Below are positions 1 through 6,409 of a stretch of 7,804 nt of DNA, one piece after another (within the stretch, counting starts at the first letter, position 1; every line of letters begins with the position of its first letter). The DNA is from a virus (Duplodnaviria > Heunggongvirae > Uroviricota > Caudoviricetes), in IMG/VR virus record IMGVR_UViG_2778261567_000005. One strand, given 5' to 3'. A program made the translations under genes and the position numbers. The notes under the pieces were generated by a model. It was not told where the DNA came from and made no database searches. It was given only the letters and a program-made list of their open reading frames with translations.

Positions 1-246
1 AAAGTCTATGGTTACCGCCAGAAACCACGTGAAGCGACGCTGGACTGCAAATTTCCGGCAGGCGGAGAAGGTTCACCGGCCGCTGATGAAATCAACACCT
101 GGACTGCGGTCACTATCGAGTTTGTGGCGGATACCGGCGAAGTCCACATGATGACGAAAGCCTGGAGCAGTGAACCGGCCTCACTTGACGGTGGTGGGGA
201 GATCTCCGCGAAGTTCGCCAGTGCCACCAGTACCCGTGTCCAGTAA
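1..246 (+). CDS. Probable phage tail tube protein, C-terminal fragment (5' end lies outside the window)
   Basis: Frame open from nt 1 with no stop until TAA at 244-246 (translation ends ...GGGEISAKFASATSTRVQ). It sits immediately upstream of the chaperone/tape-measure pair, which is where the tube gene lies in Mu-type myovirus tail modules. The call rests on position and size only. Confidence 0.5.
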   Translation, partial: KVYGYRQKPREATLDCKFPAGGEGSPAADEINTWTAVTIEFVADTGEVHMMTKAWSSEPASLDGGGEISAKFASATSTRVQ

Positions 247-260
247 TCAGGAAAAATGCA

Positions 261-737
261 ATGACCACACGAAAGAAAAAAAACGCGGTTTCTGACGAAG
301 CCGTTATTGAGGCTATCCGTGATGCACTTGAGGACGGCGATCCACGCACCGCCGGTCTGGCTGAACAACTGGCGAAAGGCTATGTGGATCTGCTTGATGG
401 TCTGCGATTCGGTGAGTCCCGTGAATACCGCGTCACCTTCCGCGAACTGACGGCGAAAGACAGCATTGATGCGGAAACCGATGCTGAACGTCTTATGGAA
501 ACCCGAAATGGCCCGGTTCTGGTGGCATCACCGGCCCTGCGCGGTATTGCGCTGCTGCGTCGCCAGATTGCCGCTGTCGGTGACATTCAGGGGCCGTTGT
601 CACAACGCCAGATTGGGCAGTTAAGCGAGCGCGATCTCTCCCGTCTGATGGCAGCGGTCAGCCTGCTGGATACCGCGCTTGCCGGAAAGCTGGCGGCTGA
701 CCGGGGGCGAGCAGGCGCAGTGTCGGGCGCAGATTGA
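261..737 (+). CDS. Tail assembly chaperone (lambda gpG / Mu gp41 analogue), 158 aa
   Basis: ATG at 261 preceded by AGGA at 249-252 (8 nt spacer); stop TGA at 735-737. Small acidic protein placed between the tube gene and the tape measure gene, with an overlapping downstream ORF in another frame, which is the conserved chaperone arrangement. Confidence 0.75.
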   Translation: MTTRKKKNAVSDEAVIEAIRDALEDGDPRTAGLAEQLAKGYVDLLDGLRFGESREYRVTFRELTAKDSIDAETDAERLMETRNGPVLVASPALRGIALLRRQIAAVGDIQGPLSQRQIGQLSERDLSRLMAAVSLLDTALAGKLAADRGRAGAVSGAD

Positions 738-861
738 AGAAGCGGCAATAGTGCTGGGGATGGTGACCAGAAGCGGCCCGGAATGGGCGCTTAACCTCCC
801 CTTATCGCAACTTTACCGGCACTGCCAACAAACGGAAAAAATTCTCAGAACGAAGCAGTAA
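261..861 (+). CDS. Predicted frameshift fusion product of the tail assembly chaperone (gpGT-like), about 200 aa, made by a -2 (equivalently +1) shift near nt 703-707
   Basis: The second frame (codon phase of nt 706) is open from the TGA at 646-648 to the TAA at 859-861 and overlaps the chaperone 3' end. The G5 run at 703-707 allows a P-site Gly-tRNA on GGG (705-707) to re-pair on GGG (703-705), after which GGC (706-708) is read in the new frame. A -2 shift at this gene position is documented for phage Mu (Xu, Hendrix and Duda 2004). Confidence 0.5.
700..710 (+). other. Candidate slippery site ACC-GGG-GGC-GA for the programmed frameshift
   Basis: Zero-frame reading is GAC CGG GGG CGA. The G5 run is flanked by CGG and CGA, both low-usage Arg codons in enterobacteria, and a slow A-site codon is a known frameshift stimulator. 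No downstream hairpin or pseudoknot was verified. Confidence 0.35.
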
Positions 862-864
862 CCC

Positions 865-2919
865 ATGGCAAAAAACCTGAAAGCCTCCCTGATTGTCGAT
901 TTACTCGGCAATGTTTCCGCCAAATCCCGCCAGTGGTCACAGGAGCTGGGGGCGTTCTCCCGAGTCGGCAGGACGGGGCTGGGTGGAATTGGAAATGCAG
1001 CCCGCCGTGCCGGTCAGGAGACAGAGCTTGTCGGCTCCCGTATGCAGCGTACGCTTGCCGGTGTCCGTGGCAGTATCCGCACGGTAACGTCGGATTTTGA
1101 CCGTCTTCAGGGCAGTATTACCGGCACGCTGGGACGTCTCAGCAACCTTTACGGGATGCTGGCAGGAGGGGCTGCGGTCTATGGTTTTAATAAAGCCTTT
1201 ATCCGCCCGGCCACAGAGATGGAGAACTATATTCTGCGTCTCAATGCCATTAATCATGGCGATACGGCAAAAACGGAAGCAGTGAAAGCCTGGGCGGTAC
1301 AGAACGCAAAGGAAACCACCTGGGGACTGGCGGGGGTTATGCAGGAATACGCCTCCAGTCGCGGGTTCGGTATGAGTGACAGGGAAGCCCGCCGCTTTAT
1401 TACCATGCTTCAGGATCAGGGCGGCTATCACGGCTGGTCACTGTCAGATGCACAGGGTGCGTCCCTGCAACTCAAACAGATGTTTGCCCGCCAGAGTATC
1501 CAGGCTGCGGACGCCAGTATCCTGACCGGATACGGGATAAACGTTTACCAGTTGCTGGCCGATAAACTGGGTGTAAACCAGAAGATCATCCGTGAGAAAG
1601 GCGAGAAAGGAAAACTGGGACCGGACAGCATTCGGCTGTTATTTCAGGTGATGGCCGAACAGGCAAAAGGTGCCCAGAAAAACGCCATGAACTCATGGAC
1701 AGGGATGACATCCATGATGGGCGACGTCTGGGACGGATTTGCCCGTGAAGTAATGGCAAAAGGGCCATTTGACAGCCTGAAAAAGAGCCTGAAAGGCTTC
1801 CTGGATTATGCCGATGCGGCACAGAAAAGCGGCTTACAGGACAAGCTGGCCACACAAACAGCCTCAGCCCTGAATCAGGGGTTTGAGTATGCCAGAGACG
1901 CAGCGGCGGGTTTTTACCGGGCCATTCAGAAAGTCAGGGAAACGCTTCAGGCATTGCGTGACGCCGGTTATGGCGATGCGCTGGATCGCATTGCTCAGGG
2001 CGCACAGACCGCCGCGAAATATCTCCTGTATATGTATCTCGCCACCCGTGCGCTGAAGGCTGTCCGCGCCATAGGTCTTGGGGCACTGCGACCGGGGGCG
2101 GCATTGTTGGGGTACGGGTTATCCACGGCCGCTGTGCTGACCTCGCCTTTTCGTAAACCGCAGACCACCGTTCCGGGCACGCAGCCAGGACGCGGCCAGC
2201 GTTTTATGAACTTTCTTACCGGGGTAAATCCTGCTGCCGTTCAGCCCGTACTGGTCACCAACTGGCCTGCGGGTGGTCTGGCATCAGGTGGCGGGGATGT
2301 GGTGGTCAGCGGTGACGGCAAAACCGTGCGCGGCCGTAAAAAACGCGGCCCCGGACGTGGGCGGGGTGTCCCGACCGTTGTGACCGCAGGCGAACAACTG
2401 GCAGAGAGCGCCGGTAAACAGGGCTTCTTCGGTCGTATGATGAGCCGTGCCGGTGGTCTGCTTTCGGCTGCCGGAAACCGCATGGGGCTGGGGCGTTTTG
2501 CCGGGTTGTTCCGTGGTGCCGGTCGGCTGGGCGGTGGTGCCCTGTGGGCCGGTGCCATGGCGGCTCCTGTACTGCTGGACAACAGCGCCAGTGCAGCTGA
2601 TAAAGCCGGTGCCATGGGTTCCCTTGCCGGAAGTATCGCCGGTGGCGCGCTGGGGGCTGCCGCCGGTCCGGTCGGGGTTGCCATTGGCTCCACGGTGGGC
2701 AGTTATCTCGGTGATTATCTGGGGGGATGGCTGACCGAAGCCTGGCAGAAATTACGGGGCAGTGATGAAAATGGCGGACAGGCCACCGCGAAAACCGCCG
2801 CACGGGTGGAGCTTGTGGCCCCTGAAGGCTGGCGGGCACGCAGTATTGATGTGGATGATACCGCACAGCATGGCCTTGATGTGAACGTCTGGAACGGAGG
2901 GAACTATGGCCTCTACTGA
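865..2919 (+). CDS. Tail tape measure protein (Mu gp42-like), 684 aa
   Basis: ATG at 865, 3 nt after the stop of the chaperone extension; stop TGA at 2917-2919. It is the longest ORF in the module, largely alpha-helical and Ala/Gln/Lys-rich by composition, with a Gly/Ala-rich hydrophobic C-terminal segment and a basic RGRKKRGPGRGRG patch. It lies directly downstream of the frameshifted chaperone. Confidence 0.9.
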   Translation: MAKNLKASLIVDLLGNVSAKSRQWSQELGAFSRVGRTGLGGIGNAARRAGQETELVGSRMQRTLAGVRGSIRTVTSDFDRLQGSITGTLGRLSNLYGMLAGGAAVYGFNKAFIRPATEMENYILRLNAINHGDTAKTEAVKAWAVQNAKETTWGLAGVMQEYASSRGFGMSDREARRFITMLQDQGGYHGWSLSDAQGASLQLKQMFARQSIQAADASILTGYGINVYQLLADKLGVNQKIIREKGEKGKLGPDSIRLLFQVMAEQAKGAQKNAMNSWTGMTSMMGDVWDGFAREVMAKGPFDSLKKSLKGFLDYADAAQKSGLQDKLATQTASALNQGFEYARDAAAGFYRAIQKVRETLQALRDAGYGDALDRIAQGAQTAAKYLLYMYLATRALKAVRAIGLGALRPGAALLGYGLSTAAVLTSPFRKPQTTVPGTQPGRGQRFMNFLTGVNPAAVQPVLVTNWPAGGLASGGGDVVVSGDGKTVRGRKKRGPGRGRGVPTVVTAGEQLAESAGKQGFFGRMMSRAGGLLSAAGNRMGLGRFAGLFRGAGRLGGGALWAGAMAAPVLLDNSASAADKAGAMGSLAGSIAGGALGAAAGPVGVAIGSTVGSYLGDYLGGWLTEAWQKLRGSDENGGQATAKTAARVELVAPEGWRARSIDVDDTAQHGLDVNVWNGGNYGLY

Positions 2920-4264
2920 CACGCCGGGGCGTGGCTCCTTTCGTGGTGTGCCGTTTCTGATTTATCAGGAACAGCGGGAACGGGGCGGACGTAACATTGT
3001 GCGCCGTGAATATCCTCTTCGGGAAAGCGGCGGCGCGGATGATTTGGGGCCAAAACTCCCGGAGTTTACATTCACGGCTCTTGTGATCGGCGATGATCTT
3101 CAGACGCAGCGAAGCCGCCTGCGGGATGCGCTGCGGGCACCCGGTGCCGGTGAACTGATGCACCCGGATTATGGCACCTTAAACGTGCTGATAAACAGCT
3201 TTGAAAGCCGTTATAACGCCAGCGAACAGGGAACGGTGGAGTTCACAATCAACGTGATCCCCGCCAGTGACGATACCGCCCCTTCGGTGGCAGAAGATAC
3301 GGCAGCTGCGCTGGAGCAGAAAAGTGGTTCAGCAATGAGTCAGTTGTTTAACACACTTTCAGACGGCTGGACGGTGATTTCAGACGGTCTGCATGATGTT
3401 CAGGCCATGACCGACACCATCAGCGATAAAATTGATGCGCTGGAGAATGCCGTTTCGGGAATGGGGATTGTGCAGGATATCAGTGCCTTTACGGCCAGTT
3501 TCACGGCCCTGAAAGGGAATGCTGCCGCCCTGATTAATTCGCCCCGTCGCATGGCTGAATCTCTGGCCGGAATGTTTGCGGTGCTGACGGGACTGCCCGG
3601 TGATCCTTCCCTGTCACTGACCGGGAAGGCCGCAACGCCGTCCGGCAGCCTGACCACAAACCGTGACAGCATGACAGAGCAGGCAATGCCGCAACTGTAC
3701 CGCACACTTTCTTCCCTGCGTTATACCCTCAGCGGGCAGGATGATCCGCAGATCCTGATTGGTCTGACGCCTGCGGCACAGAAAAATATCTGTCTTCTGC
3801 GGACAGTCATGCAGAGCGCAACCCTGGTGTCACAGGCGCAGACGGTAGGAAAACTGCTGGATCAGGTCGTCCGGCAGAGTGCGACGCACGTTCAGGATAC
3901 TGACCGGGAGGGCGGACTGGCCTGGCTGGAAAGTTCTGCCGATGTGCAGCGGATCAACCGGGATTTGAGTGATGCCCTGGAACAACAGGTGCTGGATTTG
4001 TCCGCACAGGGCCATACCGGAACCGCCCTTGCATTACGTGATGCCAGGCTTGCGCTGACAGAGGATTTAACAACGCGTAGCGTGCATCTTCCCGGCGCTT
4101 CTCAGGTCATGGTGCGAACCACCGAACCGGCACTGGTCACGCTGTACCGTGCCACCGGCAACAGCCGTCGCTGGCAGTATTTTGTCCGCAGGAACAACAT
4201 CCCTGATCCGGTTTTTGTTCCTGGTGGTCGCAGTGTGGAGGTGATCAGTGAGCAGCATGATTGA
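2906..4264 (+). CDS. DNA circularization protein (Mu N / gp43-like), 452 aa
   Basis: ATG at 2906 preceded by GGAGG at 2896-2900 (5 nt spacer); overlaps the tape measure stop by 14 nt; stop TGA at 4262-4264. The N-terminal sequence (FRGVPFLI...REYP...) and the position between tape measure and hub match the Mu N family as I recall it; not confirmed by search. Confidence 0.8.
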   Translation: MASTDTPGRGSFRGVPFLIYQEQRERGGRNIVRREYPLRESGGADDLGPKLPEFTFTALVIGDDLQTQRSRLRDALRAPGAGELMHPDYGTLNVLINSFESRYNASEQGTVEFTINVIPASDDTAPSVAEDTAAALEQKSGSAMSQLFNTLSDGWTVISDGLHDVQAMTDTISDKIDALENAVSGMGIVQDISAFTASFTALKGNAAALINSPRRMAESLAGMFAVLTGLPGDPSLSLTGKAATPSGSLTTNRDSMTEQAMPQLYRTLSSLRYTLSGQDDPQILIGLTPAAQKNICLLRTVMQSATLVSQAQTVGKLLDQVVRQSATHVQDTDREGGLAWLESSADVQRINRDLSDALEQQVLDLSAQGHTGTALALRDARLALTEDLTTRSVHLPGASQVMVRTTEPALVTLYRATGNSRRWQYFVRRNNIPDPVFVPGGRSVEVISEQHD

Positions 4265-5375
4265 GCTGTATATTGGTGGCAGTATTTTTTCCGGCTGGCT
4301 GACAGTAAGCGTCCGTCGTTCTCTGGAGCATCTGGCCGGGTCGTTTGAACTGGGGCTGATGCTGCCCGGTGAGCGCATCCCCTCAGCCCTGCGGACCGGT
4401 CAGTCCCTGACGCTCAGAATTAACGGGCAGACGGTCATCAGTGGCTGGCTGGATCAGGTCAGTCAGCGGATCAGTGCAACCCGTCATCAGATCAGCATCA
4501 GCGGTCGGGATAAAACCGGCGACCTGGTGGACTGTGCCGCCATCCATCCCGGCAGTCAGTGGCGAAACCGGACGCTGGCACAGATTGCCGCAGATTTATG
4601 TGCGCCCTTCGGAATAGCCGTGCGCTGGCAGGTTAACGACGACACGGCTGCACGCCCCTTCAGCTCTTTTACCCTGGAAAACTCAGAAACCGTGGCGGAT
4701 GCGCTGACCCGTGCGGCCCGGCATCGTGGGGTGCTGGTGACCAGTAATGCTGACGGTGATCTGGTGTTCACCCAGGCAGGAAATCAGCAGACGGACAGAC
4801 TGGTGCTGGGGGAAAACCTGCTTGATGCCGATTACAACACGGACTGGCGAGGACGATACAGCGAATACCGTGTCCGGGGGCATGGACGCGGTGGTGGCAA
4901 ACGGGGAGACAGCGAATCTGCCGCCCGGCTGGCGGCCCCAGTGGGCATCATCAGTGATGAGCAGATCGGTCGCTACCGGCCGAAAATCATCCTCGCCGAT
5001 CAGCAGACAGACACCACCGGTGCACGGCAGCGCGCCCTGCGGGAGATGCGCCGTGCGGTTGCCCGTTCAGAGCGGTTTTCCGCCACCGTGCGTGGCTGGT
5101 TCCGGGATGATGGCCGGTTATGGGATGTCAATCTGCTGACCGGTGTTTCGGCCCTGCGTTTCGGTATCGAACAGACTGAGCTGCTGGTCTGCCAGGTGGA
5201 GTTTTTACTGGATGAACAGAACGGGGAAGTCACCCGGCTGGTCCTGGCACCGCGTGACGGCTTTATCGTTCCGGCAGAGCCGGACAGCAAAGGCCGTGGC
5301 GGTGGTTACGGTGACGATGTTGATGCCTTTATTCGCCAGCAGATGAAAAAACAGGGGATCAGCTTTGATGAATGA
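4248..5375 (+). CDS. Baseplate hub / tail protein (Mu P / gp44-like; P2 gpD-like), 375 aa
   Basis: GTG at 4248 preceded by GGAGG at 4237-4241 (6 nt spacer); an in-frame ATG at 4257 is an alternative start. Overlaps the upstream stop by 17 nt; stop TGA at 5373-5375. Size and position (after the N-like gene, before the gpV-like spike) fit the hub. Confidence 0.8.
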   Translation: MSSMIELYIGGSIFSGWLTVSVRRSLEHLAGSFELGLMLPGERIPSALRTGQSLTLRINGQTVISGWLDQVSQRISATRHQISISGRDKTGDLVDCAAIHPGSQWRNRTLAQIAADLCAPFGIAVRWQVNDDTAARPFSSFTLENSETVADALTRAARHRGVLVTSNADGDLVFTQAGNQQTDRLVLGENLLDADYNTDWRGRYSEYRVRGHGRGGGKRGDSESAARLAAPVGIISDEQIGRYRPKIILADQQTDTTGARQRALREMRRAVARSERFSATVRGWFRDDGRLWDVNLLTGVSALRFGIEQTELLVCQVEFLLDEQNGEVTRLVLAPRDGFIVPAEPDSKGRGGGYGDDVDAFIRQQMKKQGISFDE

Positions 5376-5979
5376 TGAAGTGTTCAGCCGCCTGATTGCC
5401 CCGGTAACGCGCGGTATTCGCCTGCTGTTTGGCCGTGGCGTTCTGACCGGCACACATGACGAACTGAAAATGCAGAATGTGCAGCTCACCGGCATGGACG
5501 GCGAAACCTTTGATGATGTGGAGCGTCCCCAGCAGTACGGGCAGATCAGCGTGCCCCTGCCGGGCGCAGAAACCTTTTTTGCCTGTCTGGGCGGTCAGCG
5601 GGATCAGACCGTGGTGCTTGTGGTGGAAGACCGGCGCAGCCGCCCGACCGGACTCACTGCCGGAGATACAGGGGTGTATCATCATGAGGGGCACCGGATA
5701 CGGTTAACAAAGGATGGCCGCATTATTGTGACATGCAAAATGCTGGAGATTTACGCCGACGAGGGGATGCGGGTGGATACGCCGGAAGCCGCCTTTACGG
5801 GCAATATGACGGTGGATAAGAACCTGCATGTTAAAGGGAATTTCTCGCTTGATGGTACGGGGAAATCTCAGGGACTGTTCACGATGTCAGATGCCGTTAT
5901 TGCAGGGATACGGTATTCCGGCCATGTACATCATGATAACGGTGAAGGCAGTAAGACAGGAGCGCCGGAGAATGGCTGA
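5368..5979 (+). CDS. Baseplate central spike / baseplate assembly protein V-like (Mu Q / gp45-like), about 203 aa
   Basis: ATG at 5368 preceded by AGGGGA at 5353-5358; the ORF track begins at TTG 5365, but the ATG is the more likely start. Stop TGA at 5977-5979. About 200 aa, with HVHH near the C-terminus, and positioned directly after the hub. Confidence 0.8.
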   Translation: MNDEVFSRLIAPVTRGIRLLFGRGVLTGTHDELKMQNVQLTGMDGETFDDVERPQQYGQISVPLPGAETFFACLGGQRDQTVVLVVEDRRSRPTGLTAGDTGVYHHEGHRIRLTKDGRIIVTCKMLEIYADEGMRVDTPEAAFTGNMTVDKNLHVKGNFSLDGTGKSQGLFTMSDAVIAGIRYSGHVHHDNGEGSKTGAPENG

Positions 5980-6409
5980 TATTGCAATTGTGTGGGATCA
6001 GGGATGCGGTTCGCTGCAACTGAACGGTGCAGACCTGCTGACAGATGACAGCCTGCTGACAGCGGTTCTGATTTCACTGTTTACTGACCGCCGGGCACTG
6101 GCATCGGATGAAATCCCTGATGGCACACGTGACCGCCGGGGATGGTGGGGAGACAGTTTTCGCCCGCGCCCCATTGGCTCCCGTCTGTGGCTTCTCAGCC
6201 GGGAAAAAACGCTGGTCTCCGTGATAAGCCGTGCCCGTGCCTACGCGGATGAGGCGCTGGGCTGGCTCAGTCAGGATGGCGTGGCGTCATCCGTGGTCTG
6301 TCATGCAGAACGTGTGGGACACGCGCGGCTGGCGCTTTCGGTGCGCATAACCCTGCCTGATGGTTCGGTAAGACCCATGATTTTTTATGCTGATCTTAAG
6401 GGGGAGTGA
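5972..6409 (+). CDS. Baseplate protein, gp25/GPW-like (Mu V / gp46-like), 145 aa
   Basis: ATG at 5972 preceded by AGGAG at 5958-5962 (9 nt spacer); overlaps the gp45-like stop by 8 nt; stop TGA at 6407-6409. Translation begins MADIAIVWDQG... The tracked ORF starting at 5828 is an unsupported in-frame upstream extension. Confidence 0.75.
   Translation: MADIAIVWDQGCGSLQLNGADLLTDDSLLTAVLISLFTDRRALASDEIPDGTRDRRGWWGDSFRPRPIGSRLWLLSREKTLVSVISRARAYADEALGWLSQDGVASSVVCHAERVGHARLALSVRITLPDGSVRPMIFYADLKGE

What the first reader, a model, noticed from the sequence alone, without database searches (positions are those of the whole stretch)
646..861. Likely -2 programmed frameshift in the tail assembly chaperone at a G5 run followed by a rare CGA codon
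The chaperone ORF (261..737) is overlapped by a second open frame (open from 649 to 861) displaced by +1/-2, not the usual -1. The only homopolymer that allows tRNA re-pairing in that direction is GGGGG at 703-707, where Gly-tRNA on GGG 705-707 can slip back 2 nt onto GGG 703-705. The zero-frame A-site codon after the run is CGA, a low-usage Arg codon that could act as a pause. A -2 shift at the equivalent gene is documented for phage Mu, so this is a conserved oddity rather than a new mechanism, but the exact site and efficiency in this element are unverified.
Basis: partly seen in the sequence, partly recalled or inferred. Interest (0 to 1): 0.5.

Follow-up and report, generated by a model that had tools for sequence, protein, structure and literature searches.

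The report
Mu-type -2 frameshift in tail chaperone
This Mu-like prophage of E. coli carries, unannotated, the same short "GGGGGCGA" ribosome-slipping signal that phage Mu uses to make a longer version of its tail-assembly chaperone, so the finding is real but is a known mechanism seen in a new relative.

Summary
The window is the tail module of a Mu-like E. coli prophage. The chaperone gene (261-737) belongs to Pfam Gp41_Mu. It is overlapped by a +1/-2 frame that is open from 649 to 861 and stops 3 nt before the tape-measure gene.

The G5 run (703-707) is part of GGGGGCGA, read in the zero frame as CGG GGG CGA. This is the octamer of phage Mu, whose GenBank record annotates a verified -2 frameshift.

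Across 142 distinct homologous loci (33-99% protein identity):
- GGG and CGA are invariant.
- The preceding codon always ends in G.
- The +1/-2 frame stays open to the tape-measure gene, while the -1 frame closes early.
- Substitutions in the extension fall at the third codon position of the +1 frame.

The extension is 54% identical to Mu's and matches phrog_12783, listed as "unknown function".

I found no conserved downstream RNA structure.

The published Mu model is a tandem slip in which tRNA-Arg decodes CGA. That predicts ...DRGR-EQAQ..., not ...DRG-GEQAQ...; GenBank and UniProt disagree on this residue for Mu.

Verdict: supported, a new member of a known kind, low to moderate interest.

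The parts
1..246 (+). 3' part of the tail tube gene (context: the gene upstream of the chaperone)
   Evidence: Pfam Tail_tube PF10618, E=1.1e-15. PGAP calls it 'phage tail tube protein' in 99%-identical E. coli genomes.
261..737 (+). Tail assembly chaperone, the zero-frame product (158 aa); homologue of Mu gp41
   Evidence: Pfam Gp41_Mu PF23746, E=8.4e-32. phrog_508 'tail assembly chaperone', E=2e-42. 47.6% identity to Mu gp41 by tblastn.
702..710 (+). Shift site CGG GGG CGA. It contains the octamer GGGGGCGA at 703-710. GGG 705-707 is the P-site codon and CGA 708-710 the A-site codon.
   Evidence: The sequence is identical to the Mu site. Across 142 distinct homologues, GGG is present in 142/142, CGA in 142/142, and the preceding codon is NNG in 142/142. 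Elsewhere in the same genes these codons make up 20%, 8.5% and 8% of their synonymous sets.
706..861 (+). Extension read in the -2/+1 frame: GGC 706-708, GAG 709-711 ... TAA 859-861, 50-51 aa. It becomes the C-terminal domain of the fusion protein.
   Evidence: 54% identical to the Mu extension, E=3e-21. phrog_12783, E=2.2e-34. Variable columns at +1-frame codon positions 1, 2 and 3 number 4, 3 and 14 (p=0.005). Two other subgroups give the same pattern at p=0.002 and 0.0003, and a fourth (close Mu relatives) shows the same trend without significance (2, 5, 8; p=0.17). The frame is open to within a few nt of the tape-measure start, or runs slightly past it, in 169 of 172 sequences examined (the window plus 171 loci).
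261..861 (+). Predicted 200-aa fusion protein. With a tandem slip it is 261-710 joined to 709-861 (...AADRGR-EQAQ...). With a P-site slip it is 261-707 joined to 706-861 (...AADRGG-EQAQ...).
   Evidence: Constructed. It aligns end to end with the Mu frameshift product P0002, 49% identity over 167 residues, E=2e-54. Neither version of this exact sequence is in the 15-billion-protein collection, so the fusion is unannotated.
865..2919 (+). Tape measure protein gene (context: the gene immediately downstream)
   Evidence: Pfam TMP_3 PF20155, E=2.4e-16. PGAP calls it 'tape measure protein'.

Best explanation
A minority of ribosomes translating the gp41-like tail assembly chaperone slip back two nucleotides on G GGG CGA (704-710, within GGGGGCGA 703-710). 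They then read on in the -2/+1 frame to TAA at 859-861. The result is a 200-aa fusion of the chaperone with a 50-aa C-terminal domain. This fusion is the Mu-family counterpart of lambda gpGT and P2 E+E'.

Most ribosomes stay in frame and make the 158-aa short form. The fixed ratio of short to long form serves tail assembly on the tape-measure protein.

I favour the published tandem version of the slip. With GGG in the P site and CGA in the A site decoded by tRNA-Arg(ICG), both tRNAs move back by 2. tRNA-Gly re-pairs perfectly on GGG 703-705. tRNA-Arg lands on GGC 706-708, with a C:G pair in the middle and I:C at the wobble position. Decoding resumes at GAG 709-711, giving ...AADRGR-EQAQCR....

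The alternative is a P-site-only slip before CGA is decoded, giving ...AADRGG-EQAQCR....

What is shown here: gene identity, motif identity with Mu, family-wide conservation of the motif and the frame, and coding selection on the extension. What is inferred by homology with Mu: that the fusion is actually made in this element, that the shift is -2 rather than +1, and the efficiency (a few per cent in vivo in Mu).
For: 1. Gene identity and position. The gene is a Gp41_Mu homologue between the tail tube and tape-measure genes.

2. Identity with the Mu site. Mu has the same CGGGGGCGAG at the same place. AF083977.1 annotates the joined CDS Mu_56 as 'verified -2 translational frameshift in PMID 15469818'.

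3. Codon-level conservation. In 142 distinct homologous sequences falling into 7 clusters at 60% identity, the P-site codon is GGG in 142/142 and the A-site codon is CGA in 142/142. The preceding codon is CGG in 126, AGG in 8, AAG in 5, TCG in 2 and CAG in 1. Elsewhere in the same genes GGG is 20% of Gly codons, CGA is 8.5% of Arg codons and NGG is 8% of Arg codons.

4. Localisation of the shift. Taking the family together, the stretch where both frames are open shrinks to 14 nt around the motif. In L154 a +1-frame stop ends 8 nt before the motif's first G, and in L112 the zero-frame TAA follows CGA directly.

5. Frame behaviour. The +1/-2 frame stays open 100-145 nt beyond the zero-frame stop, reaching the tape-measure start. 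The -1 frame closes 5-113 nt beyond it, and only 14 nt beyond it in the window.

6. Coding selection on the extension. Third-position excess in the +1 frame gives p=0.005, 0.002 and 0.0003 in three subgroups; a fourth (close Mu relatives) shows the same trend but is not significant (p=0.17). The extension is 54% identical to Mu's and matches phrog_12783 at E=2e-34.

7. Direction of the shift. The G at the third position of the preceding codon is kept even where the amino acid changed to Lys, Gln or Ser. A backward slip needs that G; a +1 slip does not.

8. Literature on Mu. The tandem -2 model on GG GGG CGA is described in PMC3458567. Efficiency is about 2.2% (PMC3498833). A 10-mer of the Mu site alone gives 14% shifting in a cell-free system (bioRxiv 10.1101/2025.10.02.679949). 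That fits the absence of a conserved stimulatory structure here.
Against: - There is no protein-level evidence for this element. Everything about product and direction is transferred from Mu, which is 47.6% identical.
- Sequence alone cannot separate -2 from +1, because both reach the same frame.
- Three lineages have only G4. In these a -2 re-pairing of tRNA-Gly would have a first-position mismatch (AGG or CGG).
- Tandem and P-site-only slips cannot be told apart by computation. For Mu, GenBank UIW09302.1 has ...RGR-EW... while UniProt P0DJY4 has ...RGG-EW....
- I could not read the primary paper (Xu et al. 2004), which is not held.
Confidence: 0.85

Rival explanations
1. A +1 ribosomal frameshift. 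With GGG in the P site and the slowly decoded CGA in the A site, tRNA-Gly slips forward one base onto GGC and decoding resumes at GAG. This would give a 199-aa fusion, ...AADRG-EQAQ....
For: It reaches the same frame. CGA is a low-usage, poorly decoded codon, 6.4% of Arg codons in the window. The G4 variants AAG, CAG or TCG followed by GGG CGA lack perfect -2 re-pairing. The reporters in the 2025 bioRxiv study cannot separate -2 from +1.
Against: The Mu record and several reviews state that -2 was verified experimentally for the identical octamer. A +1 slip puts no constraint on the bases 5' of GGG. Yet the base before GGG is G in 142/142 sequences and the one before that is G in 134/142, using Arg codons (CGG, AGG) that are only 8% of Arg codons elsewhere. 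Re-pairing of tRNA-Gly(CCC/UCC) on GGC has a third-position mismatch.
Confidence: 0.07
2. The 649-861 frame is a separate small gene, like the annotated D108 gp41.5 or the 'hypothetical protein' in E. coli M3. It would be translated from its own start codon or by re-initiation, with no frameshift.
For: Some records annotate it that way. It has its own PHROG, phrog_12783. In the window, TTG 679, GTG 751 and ATG 760 lie in that frame.
Against: There is no conserved start. 21 of 142 distinct loci, including Mu, D108, SfMu and MuM16-2, have no ATG, GTG or TTG in that frame anywhere from the upstream stop to 30 nt past the zero-frame stop. The D108 annotation needs a CTG start. Amino-acid conservation of the extension begins right at the motif: G-E/D-x-x-x-C-R..IE.AA. 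A separate gene does not explain the invariant GGG CGA.
Confidence: 0.04
3. Transcriptional slippage. RNA polymerase adds or drops a G in the G5 run, producing mRNAs in which the two frames are fused.
For: A homopolymer is present. Database copies with a 1-nt deletion that fuses the frames exist: P0003 and P0008 from Logan assemblies, and L067.
Against: From established knowledge, bacterial transcriptional slippage needs longer runs, typically seven or more A or T, and five G is too short. It would not explain the invariant CGA after the run, nor tolerance of G4 variants. The fused copies look like indel errors or decayed prophages; L067 carries a second frame break.
Confidence: 0.02

Closest known systems
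Phage Mu gp41 / FS-gp41 (Mu_41 / Mu_56), the -2 programmed ribosomal frameshift on GG GGG CGA (Xu, Hendrix & Duda 2004, PMID 15469818)
   Same: Same Pfam family (Gp41_Mu). Same position between the tube and tape-measure genes. Identical 10-nt CGGGGGCGAG in the same codon register. Same target frame. The extension is 54% identical and ends just before the tape-measure gene.
   Different: - The chaperone part is only about 48% identical to Mu's.
- It carries roughly 14 extra N-terminal residues.
- The zero-frame tail after CGA is 8 aa rather than 6.
- The fusion is not annotated in any record of this prophage type that I examined.
- There is no experimental evidence for this element.
Lambda gpG/gpGT and P2 E/E+E' tail chaperone frameshifts (-1 on X XXY YYZ heptamers)
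   Same: Same logic and genomic position. A chaperone gene just upstream of the tape-measure gene yields a short and a long product in a fixed ratio through low-efficiency recoding near its 3' end (PMC5009743).
   Different: The direction is -1 in those phages. Here the -1 frame closes 14 nt after the zero-frame stop, and there is no X XXY YYZ heptamer in the overlap. The shift motif is also different.
Other -2 frameshifts: arterivirus nsp2TF (G GUU UUU) and Trichomonas vaginalis virus 1
   Same: A backward shift of two nucleotides gives access to the +1 frame (PMC5009743; PMC3458567).
   Different: These are eukaryotic systems with different slippery sequences. The arterivirus shift depends on a trans-acting protein, a point from established knowledge that was not tested here. 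No stimulator is detectable in this window.

Membership tests
Mu-type -2 frameshifting tail assembly chaperone (gp41 / FS-gp41) | The zero-frame gene is a homologue of Mu gp41 | tested here: met
   Pfam PF23746 Gp41_Mu at E=8.4e-32, 109.9 bits against a cut-off of 27. tblastn to Mu gives 47.6% identity, E=3e-25.
Mu-type -2 frameshifting tail assembly chaperone (gp41 / FS-gp41) | The gene lies between the tail tube gene and the tape-measure gene | tested here: met
   Tail_tube at 1-246 and TMP_3 at 865-2919. Mu, D108 and SfMu have the same gene order.
Mu-type -2 frameshifting tail assembly chaperone (gp41 / FS-gp41) | [quoted passage not shown] | tested here: met
   The motif is at 703-710, with GGG at 705-707 in the zero frame. 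Mu has the identical sequence at L003 1159-1166.
Mu-type -2 frameshifting tail assembly chaperone (gp41 / FS-gp41) | The -2/+1 frame is open from the motif to just before the tape-measure start, and it encodes a conserved extension | tested here: met
   The frame is open from 649 to 861, and the tape-measure ATG is at 865. The extension is 54% identical to Mu's and matches phrog_12783 at E=2e-34. Substitutions show third-position bias in that frame.
Mu-type -2 frameshifting tail assembly chaperone (gp41 / FS-gp41) | A fusion protein is actually produced | not testable with these tools
   Known only from the Mu annotation and literature. This requires expression and protein analysis of this element.
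Mu-type -2 frameshifting tail assembly chaperone (gp41 / FS-gp41) | The shift is -2, not +1, so the product has one extra residue | tested here: inconclusive
   The support is indirect. The bases 5' of GGG are constrained to G in 142/142 and 134/142 sequences, as a backward slip requires. Sequence cannot prove direction.
Lambda G/GT-type -1 frameshift | An X XXY YYZ heptamer, with a -1 frame that is open to the tape-measure gene | tested here: not met
   The -1 frame is open only from 701 to 751. It closes 14 nt past the zero-frame stop and 113 nt short of the tape-measure gene. No such heptamer lies in the overlap.
prfB-like +1 frameshift | A Shine-Dalgarno-like stimulator about 3 nt upstream of the shift codon, and a P-site tRNA able to re-pair in the +1 frame | tested here: not met
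   The best anti-SD duplex upstream in the window is weak (-4.8 kcal/mol, GGCGGCTG, 5 nt upstream). GGG to GGC re-pairing is imperfect.
Transcriptional slippage site | A long homopolymer run, typically seven or more A or T | tested here: not met
   The site has only five G. Relatives have four to six G.

The most novel reading that the evidence does not exclude
The Gp41_Mu family may not use one uniform mechanism. The invariant core is G GGG CGA rather than G5. Lineages with only four G (AAG, CAG or TCG followed by GGG CGA), which carry an AGGTG Shine-Dalgarno-like element 5 nt upstream in one case, and lineages with CGG GGG GAG (G6, no CGA), might shift by +1 or by a different tRNA choreography than Mu. 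If so, direction (-2 versus +1) and the incorporated junction residue (Arg versus Gly versus none) would vary within a single homologous recoding site. The absolute conservation of CGA across hosts with different codon usage would then reflect an obligatory role of the inosine-containing tRNA-Arg rather than codon rarity.
Probability: 0.15. Interest if true: 0.45.

Novelty: new member of a known kind. Interest (0 to 1): 0.25.

Why it matters
The mechanism is one of very few documented natural -2 frameshifts, and it is already established for phage Mu. A further instance will not surprise a specialist.

The practical value lies in annotation.
- This prophage type occurs in 230 of 5,426 complete E. 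coli genomes.
- In the records I checked, the long chaperone form is either missing or called a separate "hypothetical protein".
- The extension sits in PHROGs as a family of unknown function.
- GenBank and UniProt disagree on the junction residue of the Mu product itself.

The comparative set also defines the signal more sharply than a single genome can. It consists of 142 distinct sequences with invariant GGG CGA, a conserved preceding G, and rare G4 and G6 variants. It supplies natural variants for testing how a -2 slip works.

Tried and rejected
- **Downstream stimulatory RNA structure.** Folding 711-800 gives -30.2 kcal/mol against a shuffle mean of -31.0 (z=0.26). An alifold of 13 diverse homologues finds only 8 pairs and no compensatory changes. 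Rejected.
- **Rfam.** There is no hit in the window at gathering thresholds.
- **Upstream Shine-Dalgarno-like stimulator.** It is enriched 5-11 nt upstream of the GGG codon in distant clades (Vibrio, Shewanella and Alteromonadaceae types, -6.5 to -10.9 kcal/mol). In the window and in Mu it is weak (-4.8). It is not part of the signal here.
- **-1 frameshift.** The -1 frame closes early.
- **Genome-contig scans.** The single-protein query found no relatives. The comparative set therefore comes from IMG/VR and GenBank phages only.
- **Primary paper.** PMID 15469818 is not held, so the experimentally determined Mu junction could not be read directly.
- **NCBIfam and PDB.** NCBIfam has no match for the fusion or the extension. 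The PDB sequence search found no relative with a solved structure.
- **Structure prediction.** Not attempted. The fusion is a composite sequence, and a model would not bear on the question.
- **A self-correction.** I first mis-assigned which database carries which Mu junction. Reading the sequences corrected this.

Full report
**What is in the window.** The 7.8-kb window is the tail module of a Mu-like prophage of E. coli. Bases 200-900 are 99% identical to chromosomes of Shiga-toxigenic E. coli strains. Related copies, 80-99% identical, occur in 230 of 5,426 complete E. coli genomes. Pfam assigns 1-246 to Tail_tube, 261-737 to Gp41_Mu (PF23746, E=8.4e-32), 865-2919 to a tape measure protein, and 2906-4264 to the Mu gp43-type DNA circularisation protein. 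This is the gene order of Mu genes 40, 41, 42 and 43.

**Check of the observation.**
- The chaperone ORF is 261-737 (158 aa, ending ...AADRGRAGAVSGAD*).
- The frame displaced by +1/-2 has a stop at 646-648 and is open from 649 to the TAA at 859-861. That is three bases before the tape-measure ATG at 865.
- GGGGG is at 703-707. The zero frame reads CGG 702-704, GGG 705-707 and CGA 708-710.
- The -1 frame is open only from 701 to 751.
- CGA is a minority Arg codon in the window's genes, 11 of 173.

Taken in isolation these features are not beyond chance. The octamer GGGGGCGA is expected 0.59 times in a window of this composition. Long spurious ORFs abound in this 58.6% GC DNA. The case therefore rests on comparison with related sequences.

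**Comparison with phage Mu.** Mu gp41 is 47.6% identical to the window's chaperone. At the corresponding place Mu reads ...GAA CGG GGG CGA GUG.... That is the same ten nucleotides, CGGGGGCGAG, in the same codon register.

The Mu and window extensions, read in the -2/+1 frame, are 54% identical (E=3e-21). The two predicted fusion proteins align across the junction.

**Family-wide conservation.** I assembled three sets of loci:
- 11 annotated phage or prophage loci;
- 80 IMG/VR loci ranked by similarity to the window;
- 80 IMG/VR loci ranked by similarity to a distant Vibrio relative.

With the window itself this makes 172 sequences. 169 of them have an in-frame NNG GGG CGA near the end of a Gp41_Mu-type ORF, with the +1/-2 frame open well beyond the zero-frame stop. 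142 of these are distinct, and they fall into 7 single-linkage clusters at 60% protein identity.

In all 142 the P-site codon is GGG and the next codon is CGA. The preceding codon is CGG (126), AGG (8), AAG (5), TCG (2) or CAG (1), so it always ends in G. Elsewhere in the same genes GGG is 20% of Gly codons, CGA is 8.5% of Arg codons, and CGG plus AGG are 8% of Arg codons. The selection is therefore on nucleotides, not only on the peptide Arg-Gly-Arg.

The +1/-2 frame runs 100-145 nt past the zero-frame stop. It ends within a few bases of the tape-measure start or slightly overlaps it. The -1 frame closes 5-113 nt past the zero-frame stop, only 14 nt past it in the window.

Taken over the family, the stretch where both frames are open shrinks to 14 nt centred on the motif. 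In L154 the +1 frame opens only 7 nt before the first G of GGGGCGA. In L112 the zero frame ends with TAA directly after CGA. The frame transition can therefore only occur at the motif.

**The extension is coding in the -2/+1 frame.** In gapless comparisons of close relatives, I counted variable columns downstream of the zero-frame stop at +1-frame codon positions 1, 2 and 3. The counts were 4, 3, 14 (p=0.005), 6, 3, 17 (p=0.002) and 3, 1, 14 (p=0.0003) in three subgroups. A fourth subgroup, close Mu relatives, gave 2, 5, 8, the same direction but not significant (p=0.17).

The peptide matches phrog_12783, a PHROG of "unknown function", at E=2e-34. The extension has evidently been called as a separate small gene often enough to form its own family. 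D108 gp41.5 and a "hypothetical protein" in E. coli M3 are examples. PGAP annotates no fusion in the 99%-identical genome. Neither predicted fusion sequence of this prophage exists in the 15-billion-protein collection.

**Independent initiation is unlikely.** 21 of 142 distinct loci, including Mu itself, have no ATG, GTG or TTG in that frame anywhere near the site. Amino-acid conservation also starts at the motif.

**Mechanism.** The literature held here describes the Mu event as a tandem -2 slip on GG GGG CGA. The A-site tRNA-Arg (anticodon ICG) makes a better post-slip contact in the -2 frame (GGC) than in the -1 frame (PMC3458567). The in-vivo efficiency is about 2.2% (PMC3498833). A 10-mer of the site alone gives 14% shifting in a purified cell-free system (bioRxiv 10.1101/2025.10.02.679949).

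That last result fits what I find here:
- There is no downstream structure beyond shuffled controls (z=0.26).
- There are no covarying pairs among 13 homologues.
- There is no Rfam match.
- There is only a weak Shine-Dalgarno-like match upstream.

My comparative data add one argument on direction. A +1 slip places no demand on the bases 5' of GGG. Yet the base before GGG is always G, even in three lineages where the amino acid changed to Lys, Gln or Ser. The base before that is G in 134 of 142 sequences.

Under the published tandem model CGA is decoded first, and the junction is ...AADRGR-EQAQ....

The two cannot be separated by sequence analysis, and the public databases disagree for Mu itself. 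GenBank UIW09302.1 carries ...QERGR-EWL... and UniProt P0DJY4 carries ...QERGG-EWL.... I could not read the primary paper. I favour the tandem version because it is the published model and because CGA, not merely "a rare codon", is invariant across enterobacterial, Pasteurella, Vibrio, Shewanella and Alteromonadaceae phages. This preference is only moderate.

The G5 run is also not strictly necessary. The universal core is G GGG CGA.

**Exceptions.**
- L134 and L136 read CGG GGG GAG, with six G and no CGA. The homologous extension remains in the +1/-2 frame.
- L067 has lost one G, which fuses the frames, and it carries a further frame break.
- L100 has an indel inside the extension.
- Two Logan-assembly proteins are Mu fusions created by 1-nt deletions.

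These are natural variants or sequence errors.

**Verdict.** It is an unannotated orthologue of the Mu gp41/FS-gp41 -2 programmed frameshift, and so a new member of a known kind. Its interest is mainly for annotation and as part of a comparative set that defines the signal. The open points are experimental:
- whether the fusion is made in this element;
- the junction residue;
- formal proof of -2 rather than +1.

Noticed in passing
Phage Mu proteins P0001 (GenBank UIW09302.1) and P0002 (UniProt P0DJY4); site at L003 1159-1166: The two public sequences of the Mu frameshift product differ at the junction residue. GenBank has ...QERG-R-EWL... (a tandem-slip join) and UniProt has ...QERG-G-EWL... 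(a P-site-slip join). At least one of the two curated entries must be wrong.
   Followed up: partly
L134 1543-1551 and L136 1543-1551 (IMG/VR contigs; relatives of the Vibrio-type Mu-like phages): These two homologues lack CGA and read CGG GGG GAG, a run of six G. They still keep the homologous extension open in the +1/-2 frame. G6 allows perfect re-pairing at -2, -1 and +1, so they may shift differently from Mu.
   Followed up: partly
L033-L037 (AAG GGG CGA), L039/L040 (CAG GGG CGA), L058/L061 (TCG GGG CGA): Three lineages have only four G before CGA. L033-L037, which are 75-78% identical to the window's chaperone, also carry an AGGTG Shine-Dalgarno-like element 5 nt upstream (-6.8 kcal/mol) that the window lacks. 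It might compensate for the weaker slip site.
   Followed up: partly
5-13 nt upstream of the GGG codon in L008-L011, L071, L074, L076-L083, L086, L091: Distant clades (Vibrio, Shewanella, Alteromonadaceae and others) have strong anti-SD-complementary sequences (GGAGG, AAGGAG, GAGGTG; -6.5 to -10.9 kcal/mol) just upstream of the shift site. Such matches are rare elsewhere in the genes: 2% of windows reach -6 or below. The spacing resembles the dnaX-type stimulator of backward slips. The element is absent or weak in the window and in Mu.
   Followed up: partly
window 276-283: There is an A8 run (CGA AAG AAA AAA AAC, coding K-K-K-N) at codons 5-8 of the chaperone gene. It lies in an N-terminal extension that Mu gp41 lacks. 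The run is itself slippery, but it is not conserved in the 75-78% identical relatives (L033: TRKTPTAV...).
   Followed up: no
window 270, 405, 504, 708: Four of the 11 in-frame CGA codons in the window's seven genes lie in the 158-codon chaperone gene. The other 7 are spread over about 2,150 codons.
   Followed up: no
P0003, P0008 (Logan assemblies); L067 1547-1553: These are copies of Mu-type chaperone genes in which a 1-nt deletion at the slip site fuses the two frames into a single 187-aa ORF (...RGEWL... or ...RGQWL...). They may be homopolymer sequencing errors, decayed prophages or long-form-only mutants. I could not decide which.
   Followed up: no
phrog_12783; D108 gp41.5 (L004 1162-1308); E. 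coli M3 RG55_RS28325 (L002 2017-2163): The frameshift extension is annotated in several records as an independent small gene. In D108 this requires a CTG start. The extension forms a PHROG of 'unknown function', which is a systematic annotation artefact of this recoding site.
   Followed up: yes
window 2906-2919, 4248-4264, 5365-5375, 6406-6409: Successive tail and baseplate genes overlap by 4-17 nt, the tight translational coupling typical of Mu-like tail modules. ORF 5828-6409 overlaps 5365-5979 by about 150 nt, so its true start is probably the internal ATG of MADIAIVWDQ....
   Followed up: no
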